The notes under the pieces: model-generated
Told to the model about the DNA's origin: nothing
Database searches by the model: none
The model's input: only the letters and a program-made list of their open reading frames with translations
Shown here: positions 4,599-60,279 of the stretch, piece after piece
Layout: every line of letters starts with the position of its first letter
How positions within the stretch are numbered: position 1 is the stretch's first letter
Translations under genes and position numbers: made by a program
Virus record (IMG/VR): IMGVR_UViG_2634166338_000002
Strand: one strand, 5' to 3'
Length of the DNA stretch: 64,000 nucleotides
Origin: a virus
Taxonomy: Duplodnaviria; Caudoviricetes

Positions 4599-5000
4599 AT
4601 GATCCACGCCAACAGCGCAGCGAAGGAACCCGTCTCATGGCGCACTACCGACTCGCTCACGTTCACGCCAGGCCACGCCCAGTGGGCGTCCGCGACGCTG
4701 ATCAAACAGGCAGAGCCGCTGTCAACTCGCTTCGAGGAACCGCTCACCGACCGGCAGCAGGCCGTCCTGTCGTTCATCCGCCAGCACCTGATCCGGCATG
4801 GCTATCCGCCCACCCAGCGCCAGATCGCCGAGGGCGTCGGCCTGAGCTCGGTGTCCTCGGTCCATTATCAGCTGGCCCGCCTCGAGGGCCACGGCGTGTT
4901 GAACCGTCACGTGCGCGCGGTACGCGGTCTCCGGATGATCCAAGAGGCTCCCGCCGACACCTGGCTCCGGTCACCCGTGATCCCTGACGATGTCGCATGA
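4599..5000 (+). CDS. LexA-type DNA-binding domain without a peptidase domain; start uncertain
   Basis: LTDRQQAVLSFI...GYPPTQRQIAEGVGLSSVSSVHYQL. Confidence 0.8.
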   Translation: MIHANSAAKEPVSWRTTDSLTFTPGHAQWASATLIKQAEPLSTRFEEPLTDRQQAVLSFIRQHLIRHGYPPTQRQIAEGVGLSSVSSVHYQLARLEGHGVLNRHVRAVRGLRMIQEAPADTWLRSPVIPDDVA

Positions 5001-51798: not shown

Positions 51799-52263
51799 AT
51801 GCCCGGACCCCCGCCGAAGGACGTGAAGCACGGCCACACTGCCCGCGCATTGGCATGGACGGAAGTCCCGGATGTGCCGTACGAGGACGGGCCGCCGTTG
51901 CCGCCGCTGGGCGGCCGCAAGAAGTGGCATCCGCTCGTCGAACAGTGGTGGGCGATCGTCTCGCGGATGCCGCACTGCGTGCTGTGGAGGCCTGAGGACT
52001 GGCACAAGGCCCTCGAACTGGCCTACGACAAGGACTTGTACTGGCGCAACGGCAACGACCGGACCACCTCGCAGGCCACCGAGATCCGCCGCAAGGAGGA
52101 CCAGCTCGGGATCGGCATGGACGCTCGGACCAAGCTGCGGATCCGGTATGTGACGCCGAAGAACGACGAGCAGCCGGCGGTGGCCGCCGTGCCGCCGGCC
52201 GCCGCGAGTGGCAAGGTGCTGTCCATCGCCGAGCGCCGCAAGGCCGCGCAGAAGACTGCGTAA
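51799..52263 (+). CDS. terS: Terminase small subunit
   Basis: MPGPPPK...WW...W...DW...EIR..E..LG...R..LRI; directly upstream of terL. Confidence 0.8.
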   Translation: MPGPPPKDVKHGHTARALAWTEVPDVPYEDGPPLPPLGGRKKWHPLVEQWWAIVSRMPHCVLWRPEDWHKALELAYDKDLYWRNGNDRTTSQATEIRRKEDQLGIGMDARTKLRIRYVTPKNDEQPAVAAVPPAAASGKVLSIAERRKAAQKTA

Positions 52264-52278: not shown

Positions 52279-54000
52279 ATGCCGCACCAGCGAATCCTGT
52301 CGCCCGACTACGACCCCAACCGCTCGCTCGGGTGGCTCGCCACCGCCTGGATCGAGTTCTTCGTGCGGCATGGGCCCGGTGACGTAGCGGGCCAAGCCGT
52401 CCACCACGGCCAGGAGTACACCGAGTTCATCGTCGCCGCCTACGCGGTCGGCGACGACCCGACCAACAACCACTTCCTACACGACACGATCTTCTTGAGC
52501 AGGCCGAAGGGCTGCGACAAGAGCGGCATCGCCGGCCGGCTGTGCCTGTGGGAGGCCTTCGGACCCTGCCGGTTCGCCGGCTGGGCCGAAGGCGGCGAGA
52601 CCTACACCGATCCGCACGGATTCGGGTTCACCTACACCTACGAGCCCGGCGAGCCGATGGGCCGGCCGGTGCAGTCACCGTTCATCAGGATCCTCGCCAC
52701 CGAGGAGAACCAGACCGGCAACACCTTCCGGACCGTTCACTACAACCTGACCAACGACGACTGCCCGCTCTACTACTGGCCCGGCCACGACACCACCAAG
52801 GACAAGGTCTTCCTCAAGGGCAACGGCGGCGGAGAGATCCGCACGTCGACGGCATCCGCCGCGTCGAAAGACGGCGGGCTCGAAACGTTCGTGGTCGCCG
52901 ACGAGTCACACCTCTACGACACCACCGAACTGCTCGACATGAAGGAGACCGTCGCGCAGAACCTGGAGAAGCGCAAGCAGAACGCCGGCACGCTGCTCCT
53001 GGAAACCACGACGATGTTCGCGCCCGGCGACGGATCCGCCGCCGAGGCCACCTTCGAAGAAGCCAAGGCGATCCTCGAAGGCCGCAAGAAGCGGGGCGCA
53101 GCCCGGCTGTACTACGACCACCGGTGGGGCCACATCGTCAACCTCGCCGACGAGGTCGCCCTGCGGCAGGCGATCCGCGACGCCTATGGCGACGCCCTCG
53201 AATGGATCAGCCTCGAATCGCTGGTCAACAAGGCCTACGACTCCCGCACCTCCCCGGCCAGGTTCCGCCGCTACTTTTTGAACGCCCAGACCTCCGCGAA
53301 GGACGCCTGGATCACGGTCGAGCAGTGGGACGACTGCGGCCGTGCCGACCGGGAACTGCGCGACGGTGACCTGGTAACGCTCGGCATGGACGGCAGCGTC
53401 ACCGGGGATGCCACCTGTGTTTCGGCATGCCGGGTGTCGGACGGTCACGTCGAGTTGCTCGGCTGCTGGGAGCACCCGCCCGGTGCCGCCGGCGAGGACT
53501 GGATGGTCCCGCGTGAGGAAGTCGACGCGTGCATCGCCGACGCGTTCCGCCGCTTCCAGGTCGTCGGCTTCTTCGCCGACCCCCCACACTGGACGGACTT
53601 TCTCGCGGTCTGGACAAACCAGTTCGGCGACCAGCTGAAAGTCAAGGCGAGTCTGAAGTTCCCGATCCACTGGTGGACGAACCGGCAGACGCAGATGGCC
53701 GAGGCCCTCGCCGCGTTCCGCGAGGCCGTGGTCGAGAAACGTCTGTCGTTCACCCCGTCCGACGATCGGGCGGGCCGGGTCGCGGAGCTGTCGGCGACGC
53801 TTAAACGCCATGTCGGGAATGCCCGTGAACGGCCGTCCCGAGCGGGGTTGCAGATCGGCAAGGAACACAAAAATTCGGACAAGAAGATCGATGGAGCGAT
53901 GAGTACCGTTCTCGCGTGGACCGCGCGGACCGCCGCGATCGCGGCCGGCGTGAAGCCGCAGGCGCCACCGGAGCTCTACCTGCCCAAGCGGATCCGGTAA
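52279..54000 (+). CDS. terL: Terminase large subunit
   Basis: RPKGCDKS Walker A, VVADESH Walker B, and nuclease motifs LGMDGS and KIDG. Confidence 0.92.
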   Translation: MPHQRILSPDYDPNRSLGWLATAWIEFFVRHGPGDVAGQAVHHGQEYTEFIVAAYAVGDDPTNNHFLHDTIFLSRPKGCDKSGIAGRLCLWEAFGPCRFAGWAEGGETYTDPHGFGFTYTYEPGEPMGRPVQSPFIRILATEENQTGNTFRTVHYNLTNDDCPLYYWPGHDTTKDKVFLKGNGGGEIRTSTASAASKDGGLETFVVADESHLYDTTELLDMKETVAQNLEKRKQNAGTLLLETTTMFAPGDGSAAEATFEEAKAILEGRKKRGAARLYYDHRWGHIVNLADEVALRQAIRDAYGDALEWISLESLVNKAYDSRTSPARFRRYFLNAQTSAKDAWITVEQWDDCGRADRELRDGDLVTLGMDGSVTGDATCVSACRVSDGHVELLGCWEHPPGAAGEDWMVPREEVDACIADAFRRFQVVGFFADPPHWTDFLAVWTNQFGDQLKVKASLKFPIHWWTNRQTQMAEALAAFREAVVEKRLSFTPSDDRAGRVAELSATLKRHVGNARERPSRAGLQIGKEHKNSDKKIDGAMSTVLAWTARTAAIAAGVKPQAPPELYLPKRIR

Positions 54001-54623
54001 CCGGGACGTCCTCGAGGAGACGAAGCCGGTCAGAGGGTAAGCCGGTCGAGTAGGTCACGCAGAGCCCTCAACCGGCGCTGCGTTTGTGGTTCCGGCGGAC
54101 GGGTGAGGCTTAGCGGCCCGATCTCGTGGATGACCGCACGGAACAGGACTTCCCGGTCTTCGTCGGTGTGAATCAGGCAGCCCCAGGAGGCCCGGCCCCG
54201 TTCACTGGCCAGGGTGGCGCGCAGTTCGCGTAGATGATCGGCGGGCTTACCGCTGGACCGCGCGATCTCGTGGTCAACAGCCTCAACCAGCGCGGCGCGA
54301 TCGTCGTCGTCGTCACGCAGCAGACCGGATGTGACTTTCGGCGATAGTTAGCACCCGGCCGCAGCCCACACGCTGGTCAGTGCCGTGGCGTTCGGCGATG
54401 GTTGGCACCGATTTCCGGTTTTAGTTGGCACCGGTACGGCTTTTCGGCGGTAGCTGGCACTGGCTTGCTCCGACCGGCGCCGGATGTCCGTCACCCTCGG
54501 TAGCACGATGTTGGTCGGGTCTTCGGGGAGCGAGCGCTATCTGCGGCATGAGAGCGCACCAAGGGGCAAAGAGCAATGGCTTGCGTACGACTCTGTCGGT
54601 TGCGTTCCTGACGGATTTTTAGC

Positions 54624-54794
54624 TTACCGTCCGTCGTCCTTGCTTGCTCGCAAGCTTTCATATCGGTCAATAAGGCAATCGGCGCACTGGCCGCTCGCGT
54701 GTTTATTGGTTTGAAAATGTTGGCGCTCCTTTTGGGTGTGCACGTTGCAAACGTCTTCACATATGACGCACTGAGTTGGCAGCCTAGCCATCAT
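54624..54794 (-). CDS. Small putative Zn-binding cargo protein
   Basis: CVIC..C..H...H...H..CADC. Confidence 0.4.
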   Translation of the reverse strand: MMARLPTQCVICEDVCNVHTQKERQHFQTNKHASGQCADCLIDRYESLRASKDDGR

Positions 54795-54875
54795 CCTTGA
54801 TCCTCTCACGTCGGCGAGACCCTGGTGGCTTACGCACAATCTGCAGGGGTTGGCCGATAGAATTCAAAGCTAATT

Positions 54876-55610
54876 CTATCGAATGACCTCATGCAAAATG
54901 TTGACCGCGGCATTAATCGTTGACCCGATTTTCGTGTCGTCCATTTGAATATGGATTCCTTGTGCTGCAGGTGACCGAGAAAAGAGTGAACCACTGAAAA
55001 CTGTAAGCGGCTGACCGTAACCCTCACCCGTGTGCCAATTCTGTGCAAGTCGCGCCTCCGTCCAGCAGCGTCCAGATCCAGCCGGAGCAGGCTGGGCTAG
55101 TAGCGGCGTCCATACGGCGAGGACCGGGCGTACCTCATGTTTTGAAAAATCTGCGGGCAGCGAGCCTCTGTCTAGATTTCCGAGGACCTTTGCGGCGGCT
55201 TTCCAAGCCAAAAACGTATGGCGCTCTATATCAAATTTCCATTCGTCCAGCCCTTGATGCCAGGACGCCCAGGCGTAGTCTTCGATCGGCCCATTTTTTG
55301 GTACCGCCTTTCCCTGGTAACTGGAAGCGGTCCAAAATTTGTATTCAACCGAAAGAAGCTCTTGGATGCCGGACTTGTCCGCTACAACGATTGCATCGTC
55401 CAGAACCGCCCTGTTCCCATTTACCTCAACCCTAGGGCGACATTTATTGAGCCGGGTCACACTCACGAATCTCTGCTGTAGGTGAGCGACCAGTAGTGCC
55501 CTGAGGATATCTTCGCCTGCCGCCTTACTCACAAGACCGACGGACGCCGTGCGCCTTCTTACCCGCTCGTCGAAATTCTTTACCAATGCTTGGATTTGAA
55601 GCTCCGGCAT
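54876..55610 (-). CDS. Putative PD-(D/E)XK nuclease cargo protein
   Basis: GEDI...LDDAIVV...SVEYKFW; RBS GAGGA. Confidence 0.55.
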   Translation of the reverse strand: MPELQIQALVKNFDERVRRRTASVGLVSKAAGEDILRALLVAHLQQRFVSVTRLNKCRPRVEVNGNRAVLDDAIVVADKSGIQELLSVEYKFWTASSYQGKAVPKNGPIEDYAWASWHQGLDEWKFDIERHTFLAWKAAAKVLGNLDRGSLPADFSKHEVRPVLAVWTPLLAQPAPAGSGRCWTEARLAQNWHTGEGYGQPLTVFSGSLFSRSPAAQGIHIQMDDTKIGSTINAAVNILHEVIR

Positions 55611-55937
55611 GTCGTTCCTCTGGCTCGGCAATATGCTCCGGAATTCTAGTTCACGTCGACCGTAGGTGGGTCCGTATGCACGCATTCTCATCGGCAAATC
55701 CCTGCTTAGGCAACCTCGCGGGCCCGTGACGGAGGGTAGCCAAGAGGCTCGTGGTTGCGGCTTCCACTGGCGCCGCATCGGCGACCGGTGTCAACAAGCC
55801 CTGAAAAGTGCCAACTAGGACCGAAAGTCACACCGGACCAGGCGATCCGGCCTTTCGGTGCGACGGTCATACCGTCGAATGGCACATGCGTTCGATCATG
55901 CGGTGTGGGGGTGTGGCGGGTCTGGCTGCTGTCTTGC

Positions 55938-57092
55938 TGTGACTTTCGGTTCCAGTTGGCACCTTTCGGCGTTAGTTGGCACCAGCGACCCGATGTCGCA
56001 GGAGGACGTAGGCTTCGACCCGCCCACTTGGTTACCCTGCGTCACCGCGATCGACGTGTTCGGCGCACGGATCTGTTTGATATGCAGGTGATCGTGAGGC
56101 TCCAGGATCGGGGTGCGCAGCGCCTCGATCACTCTGCATATCAGGCGTTATGCGGCCCGCCAGGGCGAAGGTGAACGAAGTTCACCCGCATAATGCCGAT
56201 GTGAGTGCATTGACGTGCCACTACTGCAGGCGAACAAGTTTGAATTTTGCGAACTTTGTGCCACTAGGCCAAAGGGACCGATAGTAGTCGTTTGCCAATT
56301 TGAACGATTCGTCGACGCGATCAAGAGTCGACATTCCTCGGCGGGTGCTTGACAGCAAAGCGGCGTAGAACGACATGTCGAAGGCAGTGAGGTTGGCGGG
56401 CGTCACCTCGTCAGGAGAAGCGATTAGTATTCTTACACCGCATGCCTTCAGGGCAACCTTCCATGCGTCATTGAAGAAGGTGCACGCAGTACTTACGACG
56501 GTTTCCGGGAGCTTGTCGCCTTTCGCGCCCATGCGGGTGAAGTCGTCGGCAGTAGTATTGGTCTTCCCGTTTCCGGTCTGAATCTTTGGGCCTTGCCCAT
56601 GCGCAATTATATGAAGTATGTGGACGGGTTGCTTCGTGAAGCTCAGTAGTTCGGTCTTGTTGAAAGCGCGGCTCATCGAGACATTTGCCCTAGGCATAGC
56701 CCTGCCCTGCTGGATACTATTCCGGTATAGGCCAAGAGAATTGGTGAGAAACATCGCTTCTTGGTCACTCATCAAATCTCGCATCCCACCGCACGACACG
56801 ATGTGCACTCGAAGAGTCTGAACCGAAGGTTCCTTTGGGTTGGCACCCGTCATGACCTTGACCGTACTCGACCAAACGAACTGCGGTCAGCGCAATCGAG
56901 CTGCGTTGTAGACCAGTATTGGCGTCGTCGAGGTTGGGGCCGAGTTCGTCTTCATCACCTCCGCAAGGGCACTGCGCTGCCGCTGATCGCGCGGTGCCGC
57001 TGTCCGAGACGCGGGCAGGGTGGCTGAGGTTCGGTCGTGCCCGGTGTGAGTGAGTAAGCGGCGATACAGAACGTGAGCTATTCGTGATTTGA
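55938..57092. mobile_element. Second, truncated Tn5053/Tn402-like element; only one end is visible
   Basis: TGTGACTTTCGGTTCCAGTTGGCAC plus an adjacent second site (55943-55982); lower-GC cargo; no matching ACA end found. Confidence 0.65.
56221..56853 (-). CDS. Stand-alone CHAT/caspase-like protease domain
   Basis: ILHIIAHG (His) and VVSTAC (Cys) dyad motifs. Confidence 0.6.
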   Translation of the reverse strand: MTGANPKEPSVQTLRVHIVSCGGMRDLMSDQEAMFLTNSLGLYRNSIQQGRAMPRANVSMSRAFNKTELLSFTKQPVHILHIIAHGQGPKIQTGNGKTNTTADDFTRMGAKGDKLPETVVSTACTFFNDAWKVALKACGVRILIASPDEVTPANLTAFDMSFYAALLSSTRRGMSTLDRVDESFKLANDYYRSLWPSGTKFAKFKLVRLQ

Positions 57093-57527
57093 GACGAGCC
57101 GGTGTCGCACTGGTACCGCGGCCGCTGGTCGGACGTCTATCGCGACGTTCCCACCATCCCCGGGCAAGTGCGGCCATCAGCGGCGATCAAGGCCCGCGGC
57201 AGAACACCGCACACCGGCGTGATCGGCACCGGCGGCTACGAGTACGGGGCGACCCGGCTCGCCCGGTCGGTGCTGCGGGTGCGCTCGATGCACCGGCGCG
57301 CGATCCATCCGACGCAGAATCCGGTCGGCCTGCTCGACCCGCTGATCCGCTACGGGTGTCCGCCTGGCGGACTAGTCATCGATCCGTGCGCCGGATCCGC
57401 ATCGACCGGCGTCGCAGCCCGCGCGGCGGGCCGCCGCGCGCTACTCGTCGAGGCCGACGAGGCGATGTGCGAGGCCGCGGCTCGCAGGCTTGCCGACCCG
57501 CAACAGCTCGGCCTGGACGCCGGATAG
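57093..57527 (+). pseudogene. 3' remnant of an N4C/N6A DNA methyltransferase
   Basis: HPTQNP and VIDPCAGSAST (degenerate HPTQKP / DPFAGS); the N-terminal DPPY half is missing. Confidence 0.75.
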
Positions 57528-58719: not shown

Positions 58720-58758
58720 CCGCTCGCCGCCCACCGGCAGGCGGAAAGGGGGCGGCTG

Positions 58759-60279
58759 TTGATCTCCACGGACGTTTCCTACTCACCCGGCTGGTACCTC
58801 AAGACGCTGTTCAACCGGCTCGGCGACAAGCAACGCCGGGACCGGCTCCAGCTACTCGACAACCACCGGCGCGGGAAAGCGCCGCTGCCGCGCGGCGCGG
58901 AGAACGCCCGCGAAGCGTTCGAAGCCTTTTCAAGGATGGCCCGCAGCAACTTCGCCGAGCTGATCGTGTCCGCACTGGCCGAGCGGATGCGGCCGGTCGG
59001 GTTCCGCACGGCCGGCGACGGTGACGTGACCGGCGATCCCGAGGTGGGGTCGCTGTGGCGGCGCGCCGGCCTGTCGGTGATCTCCGGGGACGTGCACCAC
59101 GCGATGCTCGCGCTGTCGGAGTCGTACGTGATCGTCGGCGAGGTCGACGACGAGATCGACGCGGCAGTGGTCACCCGTGAAGATCCGCACCTGATGATCG
59201 GCATGCCCGATCCGTGGCGGCCGCGCAGGTTGATCGCCGCGCTGAAGGTGAAACACGACGAGGCCGACGACGTCGACCGCCTGTACCTGTACCTCGACGG
59301 GTCGGTGTTCGGTCCTGGCCGGCCGGCGCAGATCCTGGTCGCCTGGCGTAAGGCACGAGGTCAGATGGGTCCGGTCGGCGCGTTCGACCCGAGATCCTGG
59401 TCATGGGACGAACGGCGCTCCGGCGTGCTGGCGCACGACCGGATCCCGGTCGTCCAGTTTCTGAACAAGGACGAGCTCGGCGAGTACGAGCCGCACCTGG
59501 ACCTGATCGACCGTGTCAATCACCAGGTGCTGCAACGGATGACCGTGGCCGTGATGCAGGCATTCCGGCAGCGCGCCGTCAAAGGCCTGCCGCTGCGATA
59601 CCCCACCGACTTCCCGGACCCGGCGCTCGCCGGTAAAGAGATCGACTACTCCGGCGTGTTCGCCGCGGACCCCGCCGCGATCTGGCAGCTGCCGGAGACC
59701 GCAGAGATGTGGGAGTCCGGCGCCGTGGACCTACGGCCGCTGGTCGAAGGCGTATCCGCCGACGTACAGCACCTCGCGTCGGTGACCCGCACACCGCTGC
59801 ACCTGATGCAGCCGGCCGGAGACAACCAGTCCGCCGAAGGCGCCAACCTCCAACGGGAGGGCCTGACGTTCAAAGCCCGCGACCGCATCGACCGAACCTC
59901 CGACCGGTGGACCCAGGTCGTGGGGCTGATGCTGTTGCAAGCCGGCGCCACTGACCGGCGAGCGCTGGCCCGGATGGAAACGATCTGGGCGTCGCCGGAA
60001 CTGCTATCGCTGGCCGAACGCGCCGACGCCGCGTCGAAGGCCAAGGACGACATCCCCGTGCGGTCTCGGCTGACGCACATCTGGCAGTTCAGCCCCGACA
60101 CCGTCGACCAGATGATGGCCGAACGCGCTGACGAACTGGTGCTGGCGCAGCAGGTCGCCTACGCGACCGCCATAGCCGCACAGGCCACCGCGGCCCCCGC
60201 CCCCGTGCTCGTGGGCGCGGCGGGCGGTGCACCGGTGCCGGACCCGCTCGCCCCGCCGACCACCGGAACGAGGACGTGA
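58759..60279 (+). CDS. Portal protein (SPP1 gp6-like)
   Basis: SNFAELIV.A..ER....GF, GEYEPHLDLIDR, QAFRQRAVKG and SAEGA. Confidence 0.9.
   Translation: MISTDVSYSPGWYLKTLFNRLGDKQRRDRLQLLDNHRRGKAPLPRGAENAREAFEAFSRMARSNFAELIVSALAERMRPVGFRTAGDGDVTGDPEVGSLWRRAGLSVISGDVHHAMLALSESYVIVGEVDDEIDAAVVTREDPHLMIGMPDPWRPRRLIAALKVKHDEADDVDRLYLYLDGSVFGPGRPAQILVAWRKARGQMGPVGAFDPRSWSWDERRSGVLAHDRIPVVQFLNKDELGEYEPHLDLIDRVNHQVLQRMTVAVMQAFRQRAVKGLPLRYPTDFPDPALAGKEIDYSGVFAADPAAIWQLPETAEMWESGAVDLRPLVEGVSADVQHLASVTRTPLHLMQPAGDNQSAEGANLQREGLTFKARDRIDRTSDRWTQVVGLMLLQAGATDRRALARMETIWASPELLSLAERADAASKAKDDIPVRSRLTHIWQFSPDTVDQMMAERADELVLAQQVAYATAIAAQATAAPAPVLVGAAGGAPVPDPLAPPTTGTRT

What the first reader, a model, noticed from the sequence alone, without database searches (positions are those of the whole stretch)
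54325..55837. Intact non-autonomous Tn5053/Tn402-like mini-transposon carrying a putative nuclease
Seen: TGT..ACA ends and a perfect 5-bp target duplication (CCGGA). A 20-bp repeat, roughly YTTTCGG-N4-AGTTGGCAC, occurs four times at the left end (54335, 54389, 54412, 54441) and twice at the right end (55788, 55808). There is no transposase, and removing the element restores a 110-aa ORF. Established, from memory: Tn402/Tn5053 have 25-bp IRs of the form TGT...TTTC.G...GCAC, 5-bp duplications, and four versus two TniA-binding sites. Inference: an actinobacterial mobile cassette, moved in trans, that delivers defence-type genes into a prophage.
Basis: partly seen in the sequence, partly recalled or inferred. 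Interest (0 to 1): 0.78.

Follow-up and report, generated by a model that had tools for sequence, protein, structure and literature searches.

The report
Orphan mini Tn7-like transposon in prophage
A 1.5-kb jumping-gene cassette with no transposase of its own has placed a probable DNA-cutting defence gene in a resident virus of an Actinoplanes-like bacterium, and its family tends to land about 42 bases from a DNA-damage (SOS) control sequence, a landing-site rule I found in no paper I could search.

Summary
Window 54330-55832 is an intact element with TGT..ACA tips, a perfect 5-bp duplication (CCGGA), four transposase-site repeats at one end and two at the other, and no transposase gene.

Elements with the same ends, each with its own 5-bp duplication, occur in other Micromonosporaceae with different cargo. 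Two metagenome contigs carry the uninterrupted phage allele.

The family assignment needs correcting. Full-length relatives encode TnsA-like, TnsB, TnsC and TniQ proteins and no resolvase, so this is a Tn7-like element, not a Tn5053/Tn402 member. The window's own complete genome has no helper genes, so the element is an orphan here.

The cargo is a 244-aa protein of an unnamed family. Its invariant E..D..ExK motif and confident model indicate a PD-(D/E)xK nuclease.

A new point concerns target sites. In at least six independent loci the two-site end lies 42-46 bp from an SOS-box-like palindrome. The element and a truncated sibling at 55938 flank one such box.

This scan has already found transposase-less Tn7-like elements on other DNA. 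I found the SOS-box rule in no paper I could search.

The parts
54325..54329 (.). Left copy of the 5-bp target-site duplication (CCGGA)
   Evidence: The empty-site contigs L105 and L106 carry one copy of the homologous 5 bp.
54330..54548 (+). tnsA-side arm of element 1: TGT tip and four TnsB-type sites at +7, +61, +84 and +113
   Evidence: The same 1+3 spacing is found at the tnsA-proximal end of the autonomous elements in G099, G068 and G041. 83% identical to the arm of the 843-bp element in G272.
54876..55610 (-). Cargo gene: 244-aa PD-(D/E)xK-fold protein of an unnamed family, in a low-GC block (about 50-55% against 69% for the genome)
   Evidence: invariant G32 E33 D71 E89 K91 K141 in 35 relatives; pLDDT 92.7; best fold matches are nucleases, Z up to 5.3.
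55691..55832 (-). tniQ-side arm of element 1: ACA tip, two adjacent sites (+7, +27) and a conserved 18-bp block at 55724-55741
55833..55837 (.). Right copy of the target-site duplication (CCGGA)
54029..54329 (-). 3' part (about 99 codons plus stop) of the phage gene split by element 1
55838..55870 (-). 5' part (first 11 codons from the ATG) of the split phage gene
55880..55895 (.). SOS-box-like palindrome (2 mismatches to TCGAAC-N4-GTTCGA), 10 nt upstream of the split gene's ATG. It starts +48 from the tip of element 1 and +43 from the tip of element 2.
55938..55982 (+). tniQ-side end of a second, truncated sibling element (two perfect adjacent sites), facing right
56221..56853 (-). Cargo of element 2: 210-aa small CHAT/caspase-like protein
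   Evidence: weak CHAT leads; homologues sit beside Gabija-like, ApeA, PNP-NLR and deaminase genes.
57093..57527 (+). Remnant of a phage DNA methyltransferase gene (equivalent to residues 115-258 of Mx8 Mox). It marks the far edge of the deletion that removed the other end of element 2.

Best explanation
Element 1 (54330-55832) is a deletion-derived, non-autonomous member of a Micromonosporaceae family of Tn7-like transposons. It keeps only the two arms that the TnsB transposase binds: four sites at the tnsA-side end and two at the tniQ-side end. Between them lies one captured low-GC gene. It was moved in trans by TnsA-like, TnsB, TnsC and TniQ proteins from a full-length relative. It entered codon 12-13 of a conserved 109-aa phage gene lying between terL and the portal gene, and duplicated 5 bp. 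This genome has no helper genes, so the element is now immobile. It most likely came in with the phage, or it outlived its helper. The cargo is a PD-(D/E)xK nuclease, most likely a defence or exclusion enzyme. Target choice in this family is probably guided by an SOS-box-like palindrome about 42 bp from the tniQ-side end. Elements 1 and 2 sit on opposite sides of one such box. Shown here: the anatomy, the duplication, the empty site, the autonomous relatives, the cargo motif and fold, and the box association. Inferred: trans-mobilisation, the defence role, and which protein reads the box.
For: Anatomy and chance levels.

Same ends with their own 5-bp duplications:
- G290, 5.0 kb, GCGGG
- G280, 3.1 kb, CGATC
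- G272, 0.84 kb, ACTCG
- G099, 6.8 kb, ATGGT
- G041, 7.95 kb, CAGAT

G099 is filled by four genes: TnsA-like (NF033179, 3.1e-43), TnsB (matches ShCAST TnsB at 2e-7), a TniB/AAA protein, and TniQ (3.6e-19). The gene order is conserved in six further relatives.

The 4-site end is always on the tnsA side and the 2-site end on the tniQ side.

The G280 element keeps a tnsA remnant, which fits origin by internal deletion.

Empty site: contigs L105 and L106 are 86% identical over about 1.15 kb to the excised window and run unbroken across the junction.

No helper in the complete one-contig genome.

Cargo.

Defence context: the cargo's homologues lie beside TIR-SEFIR and deaminase genes. A sibling element carries a Hachiman-type helicase.

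SOS-like box: it starts +42 to +46 from the tip in E2, L106, G280, L100, L103, L104 and the G290/L089/G304 locus. None of 9 tnsA-side flanks has one.
Against: No transposition was observed. No helper was found in the genomes that hold intact mini elements (G290, G280, G272).

The autonomous elements found (G099, G068, G041) do not sit beside a box. The selector that would read the box is therefore unidentified.

Element 1 lies at +48 with the weaker half of the box nearest it, not at the usual +42 to +46.

I noticed the box motif in the data first and matched it to the LexA consensus afterwards, so the nominal P of about 6e-17 is too small.

Fold matches for the cargo are modest (Z 5.3 or less, no significant Foldseek hit). 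No Pfam or NCBIfam family names it.

The TnsA-like proteins carry D-V-R where TnsA has an (E/D)-x-K lysine, so cut-and-paste transposition is not assured.
Confidence: 0.85

Rival explanations
1. It is a Tn5053/Tn402-family (tniABQ-res-tniR) derivative that moves replicatively through a cointegrate and targets res sites.
For: 5-bp duplications, 25-bp TGT-type inverted repeats and several transposase sites at each end. TniB- and TniQ-type Pfam matches in the autonomous relatives. Defective Tn402-type integrons are moved in trans by tni genes (PMC7765201).
Against: Every autonomous relative examined encodes a TnsA-like endonuclease directly upstream of tnsB. The 6.8-kb G099 element is filled by four genes and has no resolvase. 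The flanks show SOS-like boxes, not resolvase genes.
Confidence: 0.06
2. The position next to the SOS-like box is not targeting. It reflects shared ancestry of the sites, or a general liking for promoter regions.
For: E2 and L106 share one locus, as do G290, L089 and G304. Seven of 16 distinct tniQ-side ends, including all autonomous ones, have no box. An exact-match scan of 381 genomes added no new case at the 42-bp spacing.
Against: At least six unrelated loci have the box at the same offset with the stronger half nearest the element, and no other similarity in the 42-bp spacer. No tnsA-side flank has it. The genome-wide frequency of such boxes is 1.05e-4 per bp. The empty contig L105 shows the box was there before insertion.
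Confidence: 0.25
3. The cargo is not a defence nuclease. It is a toxin or addiction module, a phage-encoded superinfection-exclusion gene, or an inactive nuclease-fold protein.
For: It is a single gene with no partner. No PADLOC model matches it. The fold matches are weak.
Against: The catalytic E..D..ExK residues are invariant in 35 relatives at a mean column identity of 24%, which argues for an active enzyme. The homologues lie in low-GC patches beside defence-type genes. Sibling elements carry Hachiman-type and CHAT-like cargo.
Confidence: 0.3
4. It derives from an IS21-type or other insertion sequence (a 'mobile insertion cassette').
For: IS21 elements also have several terminal repeats and TG..CA tips (from memory). 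The genome holds three IS21 copies.
Against: Those IS21 copies have unrelated ends and 6-bp duplications. The matching ends flank TnsA-like/TnsB/TnsC/TniQ elements instead.
Confidence: 0.01

Closest known systems
Tn7 and Tn7-like transposons (TnsA, TnsB, TnsC with TnsD/TniQ), in particular the uncharacterised Actinobacteria-dominated clade 2 of Benler et al. 2021 (PMC8649781)
   Same: TGT..ACA tips, asymmetric arrays of TnsB sites, 5-bp duplication, tnsA-tnsB-tnsC-tniQ gene order in the full-length relatives, defence genes as cargo, and insertion at a fixed distance and orientation from a recognised sequence.
   Different: The window element encodes none of the proteins. The TnsA-like subunit has D-V-R in place of the usual lysine motif. 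The apparent target is a short operator-like palindrome found at many loci, including a phage, and not the end of one conserved gene. I did not place the TnsB on the published tree, so clade 2 membership is inferred from host taxonomy only.
Tn5053/Tn402 'res-site hunters' and the defective class 1 integrons derived from them (PMC7765201)
   Same: 25-bp inverted repeats, 5-bp direct repeats and TniB/TniQ-type proteins. There is experimental precedent for defective elements with intact ends being moved by tni genes supplied in trans.
   Different: Those elements lack TnsA, carry res-tniR, transpose replicatively and target res sites. The relatives found here have TnsA-like proteins and no resolvase.
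Laboratory mini-Tn7 and mini-CAST donors, and the natural transposase-less Tn7-like elements noted earlier in this scan
   Same: Two ends plus cargo, dependent on Tns proteins supplied in trans.
   Different: This is a natural actinobacterial family. Each member carries a single orphan defence-type gene, and one copy is inside a prophage structural-gene region.
PD-(D/E)xK nucleases of defence systems (catalytic domains of MspJI/AspBHI, Shedu SduA, McrC, HamA)
   Same: Invariant E..D..ExK motif and a predicted alpha-beta-beta-beta-alpha-beta core. These are the best structural matches (Z 4.8-5.3).
   Different: No detectable sequence homology to any of them. It is a stand-alone 244-aa protein with no sensor domain or partner gene.

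Membership tests
Tn7-like transposons (heteromeric TnsA+TnsB transposase, TnsC, TniQ/TnsD) | TGT..ACA termini with several, asymmetrically arranged TnsB-binding repeats | tested here: met
   sites at +7, +61, +84, +113 at one end and +7, +27 at the other, conserved from autonomous to mini elements.
Tn7-like transposons (heteromeric TnsA+TnsB transposase, TnsC, TniQ/TnsD) | 5-bp target-site duplication | tested here: met
   Window CCGGA. Five further elements each have their own 5-bp duplication. The empty site has one copy.
Tn7-like transposons (heteromeric TnsA+TnsB transposase, TnsC, TniQ/TnsD) | TnsB (DDE, Mu/TniA type) transposase in cognate full-length elements | tested here: met
   G099 ORF: weak rve and Mu-transpos_C matches; ShCAST TnsB at 2e-7 and Tn6677 TnsB at 2.6e-4. 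Not encoded in the window or its genome.
Tn7-like transposons (heteromeric TnsA+TnsB transposase, TnsC, TniQ/TnsD) | TnsA endonuclease subunit | tested here: met
   NF033179 TnsA_like_Actin, 147.7 bits against a cut-off of 110. PF08722 in 7 of 7 relatives. GC3 supports the reading frame. Caveat: the third catalytic position is an invariant R, not K.
Tn7-like transposons (heteromeric TnsA+TnsB transposase, TnsC, TniQ/TnsD) | TnsC/TniB AAA+ regulator and TniQ/TnsD target selector | tested here: met
   AAA_22 and TniB (3.1e-7); TniQ (3.6e-19). The order A-B-C-Q is conserved in the four relatives with all four genes in the fetched stretch; the other two (G238, G304) show only the first two or three genes.
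Tn7-like transposons (heteromeric TnsA+TnsB transposase, TnsC, TniQ/TnsD) | Mobilisation of the mini element by these proteins in trans | not testable with these tools
   Inferred from shared ends, independent insertions and the empty site. Needs a transposition assay.
Tn5053/Tn402 family (tniABQ-res-tniR) | Resolvase TniR and a res site; no TnsA | tested here: not met
   The G099 element (6,772 bp) is filled by tnsA-like, tnsB, tnsC and tniQ with no resolvase ORF. TnsA-like is present in all relatives. Family definition from PMC7765201.
Tn5053/Tn402 family (tniABQ-res-tniR) | Preferential insertion into res sites beside a resolvase gene | tested here: inconclusive
   The flanking ORFs scanned were ISL3 transposase, SDR, lectin-like and unknown proteins, with no resolvase. 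I made no res-site search.
PD-(D/E)xK nuclease superfamily (cargo protein) | Catalytic E..D..(D/E)xK residues on an alpha-beta-beta-beta-alpha-beta core | tested here: met
   E33, D71, E89 and K91 are invariant in 35 relatives. They map to helix 21-47 and strands 66-69/72-77 and 83-91 of a model with pLDDT 92.7.
PD-(D/E)xK nuclease superfamily (cargo protein) | Structural similarity to solved members | tested here: inconclusive
   Foldseek: no hit at E 0.001 or better. VIA-align: best Z 5.3, and the top of the list is nearly all nucleases (AF1548, SduA, LlaBIII, MspJI, McrC, AspBHI, HamA), but Z below 8 is not decisive.
Actinobacterial LexA operator (SOS box) | 16-bp imperfect palindrome tCGAAC-N4-GNNCGa (PMC9380542) | tested here: met
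   The boxes at +42 to +46 have 1-2 mismatches to TCGAAC-N4-GTTCGA, and the TCGAAC half is usually perfect. The genome's own lexA has such a box upstream.
Actinobacterial LexA operator (SOS box) | Bound by LexA, with SOS-regulated expression | not testable with these tools
   Needs EMSA or ChIP and expression data.

The most novel reading that the evidence does not exclude
A Micromonosporaceae Tn7-like family uses LexA-operator-like palindromes (SOS boxes) as its landing signal. It inserts about 42 bp away with the tniQ-side end nearest the box. Because such boxes occur at many promoters and on phages, its transposase-less derivatives spread single orphan defence genes (a nuclease, a CHAT-like protease, a Hachiman-type pair) into chromosomes and prophages. 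The dyad symmetry of the box would explain two elements lying tail to tail around it. A further, more speculative link: the nuclease cargo may be modification-dependent, which would fit the loss of the neighbouring phage methyltransferase.
Probability: 0.5. Interest if true: 0.82.

Novelty: new variant of a known kind. Interest (0 to 1): 0.66.

Why it matters
Tn7-like transposons are studied for their precise target selection and as genome-engineering tools. The published selector surveys I could search list gene ends, tRNA genes, CRISPR guides and replication forks as targets, but no repressor operator.

A family that homes to SOS-box-like sequences would be a new class of target. It would also link transposon spread to DNA-damage-regulated promoters and to phages. 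That idea can be tested directly with a plasmid target assay.

The window also shows a concrete way in which orphan defence genes reach a phage genome: on ends-only cassettes that outlive their helpers.

The cargo family has about 36 distant relatives, no Pfam model and an invariant nuclease motif. It is a candidate single-gene defence nuclease.

Tried and rejected
1. IS21 parentage. The three IS21 copies in the genome have unrelated ends and 6-bp duplications.
2. Helper genes in the window's genome. Pfam TniB hits are unspecific AAA proteins in 860-965-aa frames. There is one sub-threshold TniQ hit and no Mu-transpos_C hit. Protein and tblastn searches with the G099 proteins found nothing at E up to 1.
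3. A second full element at genome position 2.74 Mb. Only a solitary four-site arm is there. The candidate partner block lies inside a methyltransferase gene and is a chance match.
4. The missing end of element 2. No site or tip was found to the right of 55982 in the window, and there is no arm-like similarity in 56700-57300.
5. A conserved target gene. The flanks of seven insertions share no gene.
6. The cargo's homologues in Micromonospora, Paractinoplanes and a Logan contig are not inside such elements.
7. Rfam found nothing in 53900-57300.
8. The first structure model, from 4 sequences, was unusable (pLDDT 46) and was replaced by the 35-sequence model.
9. More empty-site relatives. None was found in 400 family genomes, the phage collection, IMG/VR or the JGI contig collection. 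Five 20-mer matches were chance.
10. A profile of the TnsA-like proteins found no solved structure by sequence.
11. Autonomous relatives G079 and G085. I could not define their ends, and no box lies near tniQ.
12. An exact scan for end, gap and TCGAAC in 381 genomes returned only E2 and G280 (gap 42) and one match at gap 51.
13. One hit genome (G138) is unpublished. No claim here rests on it.

Full report
SETTING. The window is G000:C1:7668281-7732280 of a 10.65-Mb, 69.4% GC, single-contig genome. Named records that share the element's ends place it in the Micromonosporaceae, most likely Actinoplanes. The region is a prophage. The small terminase subunit gene is at 51799-52263, the large subunit gene (terL) at 52279-54000 and the portal gene at 58720-60279. 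In the nearest named phage, Streptomyces phage Samy (TerL 56% identical), the portal gene follows terL directly. The 4.7 kb between them here is therefore accessory DNA.

The interior is a low-GC block with one real ORF. Excision restores a minus-strand ORF.

OTHER ELEMENTS WITH THESE ENDS EXIST. A scan of 401 genomes of the same family for the 25-bp end found paired ends in four genomes and single ends in others. Each paired element has its own perfect 5-bp duplication:
- G290 (Actinoplanes sp. NBRC 103695): 5,032 bp.
- G280 (Actinoplanes sp. CPCC 206377): 3,143 bp.
- G272 (Micromonospora sp.): 843 bp.
- G099 (a Micromonosporaceae MAG): 6,772 bp.
- G041: about 7.95 kb.

An exact scan of 185,579 species representatives found the end only in Micromonosporaceae, apart from one evident chance hit. 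IMG/VR had none.

THE PARENT IS Tn7-LIKE. The G099 element consists of four genes (call numbers for each below):
- a TnsA-like endonuclease (NF033179 at 3.1e-43; frame supported by GC3);
- TnsB (matches ShCAST TnsB);
- a TniB/AAA ATPase;
- TniQ.

It has no resolvase. The same tnsA-tnsB-tnsC-tniQ order recurs in G068, G041, G079 and G085. The G238 and G304 copies, which are truncated or reach a contig end, show only its first genes. TniQ is the most divergent of the four proteins (35-79% identity). In every case the four-site arm is next to tnsA and the two-site arm next to tniQ. The mini elements keep exactly this layout. The G280 element still holds a tnsA remnant, and an IS3-type insertion sits in its arm, which fits origin by internal deletion. 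Tn5053/Tn402 membership fails on TnsA and on the resolvase (definition from PMC7765201).

THE ELEMENT IS AN ORPHAN. The complete genome has no TnsA, TnsB, TnsC or TniQ relative. It has only a solitary four-site arm at 2.74 Mb. G290, G280 and G272 also lack an intact cognate TnsB.

THE EMPTY SITE EXISTS. The split gene has two 109-aa homologues. They lie on JGI contigs L105 and L106. Both contigs align at 86% identity over about 1.15 kb with the window after in-silico excision, and run unbroken across the junction. The gene is therefore a conserved phage gene. It converges on terL, and the element entered after its 12th codon.

THE SECOND ELEMENT. A two-site end at 55938 faces right. It is followed by a conserved 18-bp arm block and a 210-aa CHAT-like gene. 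Homologues of that gene sit in defence islands. The other end of this element is missing. A phage methyltransferase gene resumes at 57093 at the position equivalent to residue 115 of Mx8 Mox, and its first half is nowhere in the genome. L106 carries an end of the same family, with a different sequence, at exactly the same position as element 2. L105 is empty there.

THE CARGO. The 244-aa protein has three close homologues and about 36 relatives by profile search. None has a Pfam family. G32, E33, D71, E89, K91 and K141 are invariant. The 35-sequence model is confident (pLDDT 92.7). Fold searches return almost only PD-(D/E)xK nucleases, at modest scores. The cargo DNA is 74% identical to a Paractinoplanes locus where the homologue lies 0.5 kb from a TIR-SEFIR gene and outside any such element, so it was captured from such a locus. 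The G290 sibling carries a Hachiman-type helicase (PADLOC HamB and PDC-M23B). Two further mini elements in Paractinoplanes toevensis, 4 bp apart, carry unnamed genes.

THE TARGET RULE. I read outward from every distinct two-site end. A match to the actinobacterial SOS box (TCGAAC-N4-GTTCGA, 2 mismatches or fewer) starts at these offsets:
- +42 or +43 in E2, L106, G280, L100, L103 and L104;
- +45 or +46 at the G290/L089/G304 locus;
- +44 in G104, with 3 mismatches.

The stronger half of the box is usually nearest the element. The spacers share nothing else. None of nine tnsA-side flanks has a box. Such boxes occur at 1.05e-4 per bp in this genome. Six of 14 independent loci gives a nominal P of about 6e-17, though the motif was seen first and named afterwards. 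The consensus agrees with the Streptomyces venezuelae LexA motif (PMC9380542), and the genome's own lexA has a box upstream. Element 1 lies on the other side of the same box as element 2, at +48 and inverted. This accounts for the tail-to-tail pair, although element 1 is 2-6 bp off the usual register.

Limits of this reading:
- The autonomous elements found are not next to boxes, so the selector is unknown.
- An exact-match scan added no new case.
- No paper I could search links TniQ to LexA or SOS boxes. The broad survey of Tn7 target selectors does not mention them.

VERDICT. This is a genuine, intact, non-autonomous Tn7-like cassette carrying a probable defence nuclease, inserted in a prophage gene. 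The kind is known: Benler et al. 2021 describe defence cargo and an uncharacterised actinobacterial clade, and this scan has met transposase-less Tn7-like elements on other DNA. The SOS-box landing rule is the new and testable part.

Noticed in passing
window 55938-57092: Second element of the same family with only one end left. Its two-site end lies 105 bp from element 1, tail to tail. It carries a 210-aa CHAT/caspase-like gene, and a deletion runs into the phage methyltransferase gene.
   Followed up: partly
window 57093-57527: The phage Mox-like DNA methyltransferase gene lacks its first 114 codons (the half expected to hold the DPPY motif). Losing a methylase next to a newly acquired nuclease might not be a coincidence if the nuclease depends on DNA modification.
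   Followed up: partly
window 4737-4928: A LexA_DNA_bind-domain ORF (PF01726, E 6e-19, 141-aa open frame) lies in the window, 50 kb from the elements. It may be a phage-encoded LexA-like regulator that reads the same kind of box.
   Followed up: no
window 55724-55741 and 56030-56047; L036 and L039 two-site arms: A conserved 18-bp block (GGCTACCCTCCGTCACGG or a near variant) lies about 95 bp inside the two-site end of four elements, beyond the TnsB sites. Its function is unknown; it could be a third degenerate site or a host-factor site.
   Followed up: partly
G000:C1:2744781-2744912 (L001 16782-16913): A solitary four-site arm of the same family with a degenerate tip and no partner end, next to NB-ARC/TPR, methyltransferase and IS256-type genes. 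It is a trace of past activity in this chromosome.
   Followed up: partly
L087 967-2529 and 2534 onward (Paractinoplanes toevensis): Two mini elements lie head to tail only 4 bp apart. The second entered at the very tip of the first. They carry unnamed 396-aa and 306-aa genes.
   Followed up: partly
L036 2103-7134 (Actinoplanes sp. NBRC 103695): A 5-kb mini element carrying a Hachiman-type helicase (1,165 aa; HamB and PDC-M23B models) with 310-aa and 122-aa partner ORFs that have no family.
   Followed up: partly
alignment A4 (TnsA-like proteins of seven autonomous relatives): All have E..PD..D-V-R, with arginine where TnsA has its catalytic lysine. This may mean altered chemistry or an inactive subunit.
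   Followed up: no
G000:C1:834435-837166, 2845828-2848559, 10274237-10276968: Three identical 2,732-bp IS21-family copies with 6-bp target duplications.
   Followed up: yes
L106 1-81: A related metagenomic phage carries an end of the same transposon family, with a different sequence, at exactly the position of element 2. This is either a hotspot or an old shared insertion.
   Followed up: partly
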